Below, piece by piece: positions 14,877 through 15,018 of a stretch of 64,000 nt of DNA. How positions within the stretch are numbered: position 1 is the first letter of the stretch; the number at the start of each line of letters is the position of its first letter. The notes beneath the pieces are model-generated. The model was not told the origin of the DNA and made no database searches. It saw nothing but the letters and a program-made list of their open reading frames with translations. Position numbers and translations under genes: made by a program. The stretch is from Escherichia phage S127 BCL3. Location: the sequence record OQ626344; one strand, given 5' to 3'.

Positions 14877-14905
14877 ATGTTACCCCACCGCCTGGCAGGT
14901 GTCAA
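14877..14905 (-). promoter_or_regulatory. sigma70-type promoter
   Basis: Minus strand TTGACA-17-TAACAT. The spacer cctgccaggcggtgggg resembles the spacer of the 24096 promoter. Confidence 0.55.
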
Positions 14906-14927
14906 CGGTTTTTATAGTTTTTTATAT

Positions 14928-14974
14928 GACAGGCACCTCCGGTGATTGTCTCCCCCCGTCGCCAGGTGCCTGCC
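14928..14974 (-). repeat. hairpin motif copy C (core GGGAGACAATCACCGG)
   Basis: Minus strand GGCAGGCACCT...AGGTGCCTGTC forms an 11-bp stem (one G-U pair) around GGCGACGGGGGGAGACAATCACCGG. Related copies at 24142 and 24279. Confidence 0.7.
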
Positions 14975-14987
14975 GTGAAATAAGTAT

Positions 14988-15018
14988 AACAAAAAACAGG
15001 ACCATTACAAGCCCTGTT
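14988..15018 (-). terminator. rho-independent terminator
   Basis: Minus strand AACAGG-gcttgtaatggt-CCTGTT followed by TTTTGTT. Confidence 0.65.

What the first reader, a model, noticed from the sequence alone, without database searches (positions are those of the whole stretch)
14877..15018. Third copy of the GGGAGACAAYCACCGG hairpin sits between a terminator and a paralogous promoter
On the minus strand the order is: terminator (14988-15018), then hairpin copy C (14928-14974; 11-bp stem GGCAGGCACCT/AGGTGCCTGTC), then promoter TTGACA-17-TAACAT (14877-14905).
The promoter spacer (cctgccaggcggtgggg) resembles that of promoter P1 at 24096 (gcggccccgccaggtgg). So a promoter-plus-hairpin module has been duplicated between loci 9 kb apart and on opposite strands.
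Here the hairpin is upstream of the promoter. At 24.1 kb it is downstream. This argues for a unit that works in arrays or at the DNA level.
Basis: seen in the sequence. Interest (0 to 1): 0.5.

Follow-up and report, generated by a model that had tools for sequence, protein, structure and literature searches.

The report
Conserved promoter-proximal hairpin in rV5-like phages
The hairpin at 14.9 kb is a real, conserved ~50-base element found two or three times per genome in a large group of E. coli-type phages, it sits just after its own promoter (hidden inside the preceding terminator), matches no described RNA family, and its function is unknown.

Summary
The window is an rV5-like phage (Vequintavirus; 99.4% identical to ECP26).

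**What holds.** The terminator, hairpin and promoter are at the stated coordinates. The 16-mer occurs exactly three times. A covariance model finds only these three copies in the window and none in the rest of an ECP26 genome.

**What changes.**
- Hairpin C is not only upstream of a promoter. The terminator carries its own promoter: TTGTAA in the loop, 16 nt, TGtTATACT. This places the hairpin about 2 nt from a predicted start site.
- All 16 C-type orthologues examined, from six phage genera and one MAG contig, keep this terminator, promoter and hairpin layout.
- The order is therefore promoter, hairpin, promoter at both 14.9 kb and 24.1 kb.
- The claimed promoter-spacer resemblance is not significant (679 of 5000 shuffles match it).

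**Spread.** The element occurs in more than 200 phage records and in unrelated metagenomic phage contigs. It is absent from Rfam, from 5,426 E. coli genomes and from the papers searched.

**Limits.** Covariation is weak; conservation is mainly of primary sequence (AAHCACCGG).

**Best reading.** It is the 5′-terminal RNA module of early or non-coding transcripts, carried on a PeSL-like cassette. Function is unproven.

The parts
14993..15020 (-). Intrinsic-terminator stem-loop ending the upstream 63-aa gene (15035-15226), followed by a T-run at 14992-14986. Its loop holds TTGTAA (15010-15005).
   Evidence: Terminator scan, 11 pairs. Fold -15.6 kcal/mol, z = -4.3. Present in all C-type orthologues.
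14983..15010 (-). Promoter embedded in the terminator: -35 TTGTAA (15010-15005), 16-nt spacer, TG (14991-14990), -10 TATACT (14988-14983). Predicted start is A at 14976.
   Evidence: Promoter scan, 9 of 12 with TG. Across 16 orthologues the pattern TTGnnn, 16-18 nt, TGnTATNNT, 3-6 nt (usually 6), A is kept although the terminator sequences differ. Not mapped experimentally.
14925..14976 (-). Hairpin element, copy C. It has a lower stem (14974-14964 with 14938-14928), an upper CUGG/CCGG stem, and a purine-rich apical loop. The 16-mer core is at 14939-14954.
   Evidence: Covariance model R1, 69.1 bits, E = 4e-15. Folds. Consensus fold of the C-type subfamily.
14906..14924 (-). A+T-rich spacer between hairpin C and the second promoter.
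   Evidence: Sequence.
14877..14905 (-). Second promoter, TTGACA-17-TAACAT, with a G+C-rich spacer (CCTGCCAGGCGGTGGGG). It serves the next gene.
   Evidence: Promoter scan, 10 of 12. Spacer G+C 0.82. Conserved within Vequintavirus.
14550..14822 (-). First downstream gene, 90 aa, of unknown function.
   Evidence: ORF list. phrog_7287, unknown function, E = 3e-46; no Pfam match.
24096..24124 (+). Promoter P1, TTGACA-17-(TGg)CACAAT, with spacer GCGGCCCCGCCAGGTGG. Predicted start is near 24131.
   Evidence: Promoter scan, 10 of 12 with TG. Spacer G+C 0.88.
24140..24189 (+). Hairpin element, copy A. Its 5' arm is the same as in C; its 3' arm differs but is still complementary.
   Evidence: R1, 48.6 bits. 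Fold -21.7 kcal/mol, z = -1.9. Alignment.
24240..24267 (+). Promoter P2, TTGCTT-16-(TGa)TACTAT.
   Evidence: Read from the sequence. The same layout occurs in L043, L124, L106, GAP31, KB57 and POP15.
24275..24323 (+). Hairpin element, copy B. This is the compact form, CCGG-GAGACAAUCA-CCGG.
   Evidence: R1, 57.7 bits. Its fold is not better than shuffled sequence, z = +0.4.
24196..24214 (.). Fur-box-like palindrome after copy A. It is the best match to the Fur consensus in the whole window (16 of 19).
   Evidence: Consensus scan.
24332..24350 (.). Fur-box-like palindrome after copy B (15 of 19). A degenerate repeat follows at 24357-24376.
   Evidence: Consensus scan. Repeat family D5. Conserved next to the hairpin in other genera.

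Best explanation
Copy C is one of three paralogous copies of a ~50-nt element that forms the 5' end of a primary transcript.

**Layout on the minus strand**
1. The upstream gene ends in an intrinsic terminator.
2. The terminator loop supplies a -35 (TTGTAA). Its 3' arm and T-run form the spacer. TGtTATACT follows.
3. Host sigma-70 polymerase is predicted to start at A14976. The RNA would enter the hairpin after 2 unpaired bases.
4. The transcript would then read through an A+T-rich spacer and a second promoter into a block of small genes of unknown function.

Copies A and B have the same promoter-then-hairpin layout. Their transcripts run into a non-coding, origin-like region.

**Element structure (working model)**
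- A variable lower stem.
- A CCKG/CCGG upper stem.
- An apical loop that always shows GAGACAA-H-CA or a close variant.

**Proposed mechanism (inferred, not shown)**
- The element works in the RNA.
- The 5'-terminal stem would shield the transcript from 5'-end-dependent decay.
- The conserved loop and 3' arm (AAHCACCGG) would be read by an unidentified protein or RNA partner.
- The whole terminator, promoter and hairpin cassette also behaves as a recombination module.
For: **Shown**
- Three exact 16-mers.
- One model hits only these three sites in the window, and none in the rest of an ECP26 genome.
- The terminator-embedded promoter is present in all 16 C-type orthologues. These come from Vequintavirus, Phapecoctavirus, Justusliebigvirus, Seunavirus, Mydovirus, Certrevirus and a MAG contig. 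The element start lies 3-6 nt (usually 6) after the -10.
- In every instance with recognisable promoter elements upstream, on either strand, the GGAGACAA strand is the sense strand.
- The distance from the -10 to the motif varies from 22 to 38 nt. This fits a transcript element better than a fixed DNA site.
- Copies A and C share a 5' arm but have different 3' arms, and each 3' arm is complementary to it.
- The C-type subfamily has a consensus fold with G-C to G-U changes and one A-U to G-C pair.
- Sense-strand G-U wobbles outnumber A-C mismatches 31 to 12. The sense strand folds better in 18 of 24 cases.
- The element is conserved in 198-236 phage records. It is also found in unrelated contigs that share no proteins with this phage.
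- In several of those contigs a U-run or terminator follows within 50-110 nt. That implies short RNAs.
Against: - No transcript data exist. The promoter and the start site are predictions only.
- Covariation is weak. On the 24-sequence alignment 73% of cells pair, the same as in shuffles.
- RNAalifold gives no consensus structure for the whole family.
- Copy B folds no better than shuffled sequence.
- In L207 the conserved 3' segment GGGGGUGCCUGUC has no 5' partner.
- Conservation is mainly of primary sequence, which a DNA-binding protein would also explain.
- No partner, no target and no complementary site was found in the phage.
Confidence: 0.5

Rival explanations
1. DNA-level site. The conserved GGAGACAAHCACCGG (with the CACCKGG/CACCGG repeat) is bound as duplex or single-stranded DNA by a phage or host protein. 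It could act as an operator or roadblock just inside the transcribed region, or as part of replication initiation next to the iteron-like and Fur-box-like repeats.
For: - Primary sequence is conserved far better than pairing.
- Copies A and B lie in a conserved non-coding hub with Fur-box-like palindromes and iteron-like repeats.
- Copies B and C are divergently oriented about 9.4 kb apart in three genera.
Against: - The distance to the promoter varies from 22 to 38 nt.
- Orientation always follows the local promoter.
- The wobble bias favours the sense strand.
- Copy C and the copies in unrelated contigs are not next to iterons.
Confidence: 0.2
2. Recombination cassette only. The terminator, promoter and hairpin unit is a PeSL-like mobile regulatory module. 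Its conservation reflects frequent exchange and gene conversion between co-infecting phages, and the loop has no sequence-specific function.
For: - BLAST breakpoints fall at the element. Some Vequintaviruses share only query positions 47-181. phAPEC8-like phages share only positions 21-103.
- L183 and L184 combine a phAPEC8-type 5' arm with a Vequintavirus-type 3' arm. The C copy of L182 carries the interior of copy A.
- The flanking genes are small and of unknown function.
- The window holds other terminator-embedded promoters without the hairpin.
Against: - There are only 2-3 copies per genome, at syntenic positions across genera.
- The same ~20-nt core occurs in phages with no other DNA or protein similarity. 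Exchange of homologous DNA does not explain that.
Confidence: 0.15
3. Independent trans-acting small RNAs. The copies are sibling sRNAs or decoys whose conserved loop pairs with, or sequesters, a host or phage factor. Copy C's position before a gene would be incidental.
For: - Copies A and B have no ORF downstream.
- Units in L192, L122 and L091 are followed by a terminator or U-run within 50-110 nt.
- There are several copies per genome with one shared loop.
- An rV5-like phage is already known to carry a functional non-coding RNA locus (PMC3475682).
Against: - No terminator follows A, B or C in the window.
- No complementary target of more than 10 nt exists in the phage.
- No host counterpart was found.
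- Host target mRNAs could not be searched.
Confidence: 0.15

Closest known systems
PeSL (promoter-early stem-loop) cassettes of T4-type phages (Arbiol et al. 2010, PMC2839356; Comeau et al. 2014, PMC4122927)
   Same: - A compact intergenic unit joining a terminator stem-loop to a sigma-70-type early promoter.
- It lies among small genes of unknown function.
- It sits at mosaic junctions between related phages.
   Different: - Here the -35 lies inside the terminator loop.
- A further conserved hairpin is transcribed from the promoter.
- There are only 2-3 hairpin copies per genome rather than many.
- No sequence similarity to RB49 or phi1 PeSLs was tested.
- Mini-circle formation is unknown.
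5'-terminal stabiliser stem-loops of bacterial and phage mRNAs, such as the ompA 5' UTR (from my own knowledge)
   Same: - The hairpin begins within 2 nt of the predicted 5' end.
- It is G+C-rich and stable in copies C and A.
   Different: - Stabiliser hairpins need no conserved loop.
- Here about 15 nt of loop and 3' arm are conserved across unrelated phages.
- Copy B is not notably stable.
Promoter-proximal antitermination RNAs: lambda/P22 nut boxB and HK022 put (from my own knowledge)
   Same: - An RNA hairpin just downstream of early promoters.
- Several copies per genome.
- The loop contains GACAA, as in P22 boxB.
   Different: - No boxA is nearby.
- The base after GACAA varies (U, C or A), so a boxB-type closing pair is not kept.
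- Other genera have GAUAA, GGUAA or GUACAAAA instead.
- No N-like protein was identified.
- No terminator needs to be read through before the end of the operon.
Pseudo-ToxI non-coding RNA of the rV5-like phage PhiTE (Blower et al. 2012, PMC3475682)
   Same: - A non-coding RNA locus in the early region of a phage of this group.
   Different: - Pseudo-ToxI consists of tandem 36-nt repeats that mimic an antitoxin.
- Here the copies are dispersed (134 bp and 9.3 kb apart), each with its own promoter.
- The partial match of the reverse complement to ToxI (my recollection of the ToxI sequence) was not tested.

Membership tests
Any Rfam 15 RNA family | Match to a covariance model at its gathering score | tested here: not met
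   - No match at gathering score in the whole window.
- With E up to 10, only chance-level hits around copy C: PreQ1 at 14 bits against a threshold of 39.
- Nothing around copies A and B, nor in the GAP31 homologous locus.
PeSL cassette | Sigma-70-type promoter joined to a terminator stem-loop in an intergenic region among ORFans | tested here: met
   Terminator 15020-14993 overlaps promoter 15010-14983. Neighbouring genes are of unknown function.
PeSL cassette | Many copies per genome in hyperplastic regions | tested here: not met
   Three hairpin copies per Vequintavirus genome. A simple scan found only about three terminator-embedded TG-extended promoters in the 64-kb window.
PeSL cassette | Acts as a recombination junction between related phages | tested here: inconclusive
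   BLAST breakpoints and hybrid hairpins fit this.
PeSL cassette | Sequence homology to the RB49/phi1 PeSL consensus | not tested
Intrinsic terminator (for hairpin C itself) | G+C-rich stem directly followed by a U-run | tested here: not met
   Hairpin C is followed by CAUAUAAAAAAC. The scan lists only the upstream stem-loop.
5'-terminal stabiliser hairpin | Stem begins within about 2-4 nt of the RNA 5' end | tested here: inconclusive
   The feature is met only for the predicted start, A14976, with the stem starting at 14974. The start site has not been mapped.
nut boxB / put antitermination RNA | boxA next to a short stem closing a GNRA-like pentaloop, with the pairing conserved | tested here: not met
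   No boxA near any copy. The closing position varies and the loops differ between genera.
Host repetitive element (REP/BIME, MITE) or copy of a host RNA | Present in host chromosomes | tested here: not met
   No BLAST match in 5,426 complete E. coli genomes at E up to 10. The 19-mer scan of 185,579 species genomes gave 6 hits, none in Enterobacteriaceae.
Type III antitoxin-like repeat (ToxI / pseudo-ToxI) | Tandem head-to-tail repeats of about 36 nt | tested here: not met
   The copies are 134 bp and 9.3 kb apart, each with its own promoter.
Structured RNA supported by covariation | Compensatory changes above background | tested here: inconclusive
   - 2 of 10 pairs show double changes, and measures equal the shuffles.
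- No family-wide consensus fold.
- The C-type subfamily has a 13-pair consensus, with 2 pairs showing double changes.

The most novel reading that the evidence does not exclude
The element defines an undescribed class of phage RNA module: a short 5'-terminal hairpin RNA with the loop and arm sequence GGAGACAAHCACCGG. Unrelated virulent phages share it (Vequintavirinae, Stephanstirmvirinae, unclassified 47-kb, 168-kb and 215-kb contigs, and a Pseudobdellovibrionaceae-binned contig). On this reading they share it because it engages one conserved bacterial component, such as the RNA-decay, translation or defence machinery. In the Vequintavirinae hub it would be coupled to Fur-box-like sites.
Probability: 0.25. 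Interest if true: 0.8.

Novelty: new variant of a known kind. Interest (0 to 1): 0.55.

Why it matters
- rV5-like and phAPEC8-like phages are widely used in phage therapy and biocontrol, yet how they control early genes is almost unknown.
- A small sequence element kept at syntenic sites across at least six genera, and shared with unrelated phages, is likely to mark a common regulatory or host-takeover step.
- The terminator-embedded promoter corrects how these intergenic regions should be annotated.
- The element gives a short, testable handle (three sites per genome) for RNA mapping, mutagenesis and partner pull-down.
- If it turns out to be only a promoter, terminator and stem cassette, it still extends the PeSL idea of mobile regulatory modules beyond T4-type phages.

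Tried and rejected
- **Rfam.** Three searches on the window and one on GAP31 found nothing. The weak PreQ1 hit rests on the A-rich tail, which is not conserved in L056.
- **16-mer scan of IMG/VR.** About 100 of 120 hits are one lambdoid prophage gene, a chance match in coding DNA, and were discarded. Many hits of the 15-mer in G+C-rich contigs are likewise coding.
- **Coding reading.** The 107-aa ORF at 14764-15087(+) spans the region, but it is antisense to both flanking genes. Orthologues differ by 2-nt indels inside the hairpin. Rejected.
- **Small peptide after the GGAG.** No conserved start codon. Rejected.
- **Target search.** No complement to the loop longer than 10 nt anywhere in the window or the rest of ECP26.
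- **Shared partner protein.** No protein is shared between the Vequintavirus genome and the motif-bearing fragments of unrelated contigs. The fragments were short, so this test is weak.
- **Host mimicry.** No match in E. coli genomes or in species-representative genomes.
- **Literature.** No paper contains the motif sequence. The rV5 genome paper lists promoters and terminators but not this element. No Vequintavirus transcriptome paper was found.
- **Resemblances considered by eye and dropped:**
  - sigma-54 promoter: the GG and GC spacing is 2 nt short;
  - G-quadruplex: only copy B has four G-runs;
  - CRISPR I-E or I-F repeat mimic;
  - guanidine-III and NAD+ riboswitches: no Rfam hit;
  - Shine-Dalgarno or anti-Shine-Dalgarno mimic: GGAG is GAAG in phAPEC8 and L183;
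  - the P3 region of RNase P RNA: from memory only.
- **GC skew.** It follows gene orientation and gives no origin signal at 24 kb.
- **Contig L122.** No match in the annotated phage collection, so it gave no context.

Full report
**Source.** The window is an rV5-like myovirus (Vequintavirus). Region 14000-16000 is 99.4% identical to Escherichia phage vB_EcoM-ECP26 and matches 167 phage records. The finding lies in an array of small minus-strand genes of unknown function.

**Observation.** GGGAGACAAYCACCGG occurs exactly at 14939-14954(-), 24160-24175(+) and 24294-24309(+). On the minus strand the stated order is correct:
- A terminator-like stem-loop at 15020-14993 with a T-run (-15.6 kcal/mol, z = -4.3).
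- A hairpin at 14974-14928 with 10 Watson-Crick pairs and one G-U in the lower stem (-24.6 kcal/mol, z = -3.5).
- TTGACA-17-TAACAT at 14905-14877.

The spacer resemblance to P1 is not significant. The best match is 10 of 17, reached by 679 of 5000 shuffles. The two promoters do stand out as the only TTGACA promoters with spacers above 80% G+C. Copy A is moderately stable (z = -1.9). Copy B is no better than shuffled sequence (z = +0.4).

The promoter scan also lists TTGTAA-16-TATACT with a TG extension at 15010-14983(-).
- The -35 sits in the terminator loop.
- The 3' arm and T-run form the spacer.
- The -10 ends 6 nt before A14976, where the element begins.

I extracted the orthologous site from 16 phages or contigs. 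They represent Vequintavirus, Phapecoctavirus, Justusliebigvirus, Seunavirus, Mydovirus, Certrevirus and a MAG contig. All have three features, although the terminator sequences differ:
- a terminator hairpin of -10 to -18 kcal/mol with TTGnnn in its loop;
- a 16-18-nt spacer and TGnTATNNT;
- then 3-6 nt (usually 6) before an A that starts the element.

Hairpin C therefore follows its own predicted promoter, as A follows P1 (24096-24124) and B follows P2 (24240-24267). Hairpin A is in turn followed by P2. Both loci read promoter, hairpin, promoter. Two other terminator-embedded TG-extended promoters in the window lack the hairpin. The cassette type is general and the hairpin is an addition to it.

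**Copy number and spread.** A covariance model built from 24 aligned instances hits only the three sites in the window, at 69, 58 and 49 bits. It finds nothing in the remaining 76 kb of ECP26.

GAP31, KB57 and POP15 each have a B-type copy in a homologous non-coding hub. Each also has a C-type copy 7-9.4 kb away on the other strand. BLAST finds the A/B region in 236 phage records and the C region in 198. Their hosts include Escherichia, Klebsiella, Salmonella, Cronobacter, Pectobacterium and Enterobacter.

Pattern scans also recovered family members outside this group:
- Contig IMGVR_UViG_3300027123_000194 (47 kb) has five copies, each behind a terminator and a TGnTATAAT promoter. It has no BLAST match to any annotated phage.
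- 168-kb and 215-kb contigs each have a copy (L134, L207).
- A 330-kb contig binned as Pseudobdellovibrionaceae has two copies. One copy (L192 645-696) shows the same terminator-loop -35 layout.

These fragments share no proteins with the Vequintavirus genome. The element is absent from 5,426 complete E. coli genomes. It is essentially absent from 185,579 species-representative genomes. It matches no Rfam family. The motif sequence appears in no relevant paper in the library.

**Anatomy.** The family aligns end to end. Invariant or nearly invariant positions are a 5' A, GG-A in the 5' arm, GGAG, AA-N-CACC-G-G, and a G in the 3' arm. My working model has three parts:
- a variable lower stem;
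- an upper stem in which the 3' CCGG pairs with an upstream CCKG;
- an apical loop that always displays GAGACAA-H-CA or a variant.

The variants are GAUAA in phAPEC8, GGUAA in SKA64 and PD06, GUACAAAA in the B copies of GAP31 and KB57, and GGAAACA or GGAAAGU in their C copies. Copies of types C, A and the unrelated 'T' type carry an extra G-rich insert of 8-10 nt that B lacks.

*Evidence for pairing*
- Copies A and C share a 5' arm, while their different 3' arms are each complementary to it.
- The C-type subfamily gives a 13-pair consensus with G-C to G-U changes and one A-U to G-C pair.
- Sense-strand G-U pairs outnumber A-C mismatches 31 to 12, and the sense strand folds better in 18 of 24 cases.

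*Evidence against pairing*
- On the full alignment the paired fraction (73%) and the covariation score equal the shuffles.
- RNAalifold returns no family-wide structure.
- L207 keeps the 3' segment without a 5' partner.

Conservation is therefore mainly of primary sequence, and the fold is only moderately supported.

**Recombination.**
- Some Vequintaviruses share only the part downstream of the terminator (query positions 47-181).
- phAPEC8-like phages share only the terminator, promoter and 5' half (positions 21-103).
- L183 and L184 join a phAPEC8-type 5' arm to a Vequintavirus-type 3' arm.
- The C copy of MiataMamis carries the interior of copy A.

This fits a PeSL-like recombination module (PMC2839356). 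It does not explain why unrelated phages share the core.

**Mechanism.** I commit to an RNA-level role (confidence 0.5). The element is the 5'-terminal module of transcripts made by host polymerase early in infection.
- *Shown:* sequence, copy number, conservation, and consistent promoter-like context and orientation.
- *Inferred:* that the promoters fire, that the stem protects the 5' end, and that the loop and 3' arm are recognised by a partner.

The rivals are a DNA-level site (0.2), a recombination cassette with no loop function (0.15), and free trans-acting small RNAs (0.15). The last overlaps with the main reading.

**Verdict.** This is a real, conserved and undescribed element. The function is open, so interest is moderate (0.55). 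It would be higher if the loop proves to engage a conserved bacterial factor.

Noticed in passing
window 24196-24214, 24332-24350, 24357-24376; 12230-12272: Fur-box-like palindromes (GAGAAYGRTTATCATT). The three best matches to the E. coli Fur consensus in intergenic or non-coding DNA (16, 15 and 15 of 19) lie here. Two sit just after hairpins A and B, and one cluster sits in the 11.2-13.6 kb non-coding region. A fourth 15/19 match at 15349-15367 lies inside an ORF and was set aside. Such boxes also follow the hairpin in GAP31, KB57, POP15 and L187-L189. They could mean Fur control, or Fur titration by a phage that encodes ribonucleotide reductases.
   Followed up: partly
window 23990-24950: A conserved ~1-kb non-coding hub inside the minus-strand gene array. 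It holds tandem promoters, hairpins A and B, Fur-like boxes, an A+T-rich stretch, and iteron-like direct repeats GAAAACGAAAAAYMGATCGAG at 24465-24650. Homologous hubs in KB57, POP15 and GAP31 carry several copies (at least five in KB57 and POP15) of TCGATCGAGAACCC. It looks like an origin or a regulatory hub. GC skew is uninformative.
   Followed up: partly
L126 19790-19900; L127 19800-19910; L128 19810-19920: A ~100-nt segment behind its own promoter in the GAP31, KB57 and POP15 hubs (CGCCACCCCACGGCGAAAAGGCGGGGCUAAC...). It shows apparently compensatory differences between genera, has no Rfam match, and was not seen in the window.
   Followed up: partly
window 23820-23985 (-): A small gene has a disrupted start in the window. 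A good ribosome-binding site precedes ATGATCCCCCTGG (five C), which stops after 6 codons, while a 54-codon frame continues out of phase. ECP26 and other relatives have three or four C, or a start 12 nt upstream. This is a sequencing error in a homopolymer, a pseudogene, or a frameshift.
   Followed up: partly
window 14158-14130 (-); 24925-24883 (-): Two further terminators with a promoter built in: a -35-like TTG in or near the loop, then a T-run and TGnTATNNT. Neither has the hairpin. This compact terminator-promoter design recurs in the early region.
   Followed up: partly
window 24027-24057, 24104-24120, 16708-16719, 14888-14899, 12102-12110: G+C-rich words recur around the promoters and the non-coding regions: GGCCCCGCCAGG three times and CCTGCCAGG(C) three times. 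All contain the Dcm site CCAGG. Their meaning is unknown.
   Followed up: no
L122 1-6196, L091, L207: In unrelated contigs the hairpin unit is part of a longer repeat. A second conserved box, UGUAACUGNAAUGUAA, lies about 20 nt downstream. There are five copies within about 7 kb of one 47-kb contig.
   Followed up: no
L192 3950-3990 and 590-640 (-): In the Pseudobdellovibrionaceae-binned contig each unit is followed by a strong hairpin. The 5' arm of the first one (GGGGAGACA) repeats the motif, so its 3' arm could pair with the motif loop as an alternative structure. This was seen in one copy only.
   Followed up: no
(records MG0656xx): About 17 records named 'Campylobacter phage' (marked UNVERIFIED where the record was opened) are 93% identical to this E. 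coli phage group. They probably reflect contamination or mislabelling.
   Followed up: no
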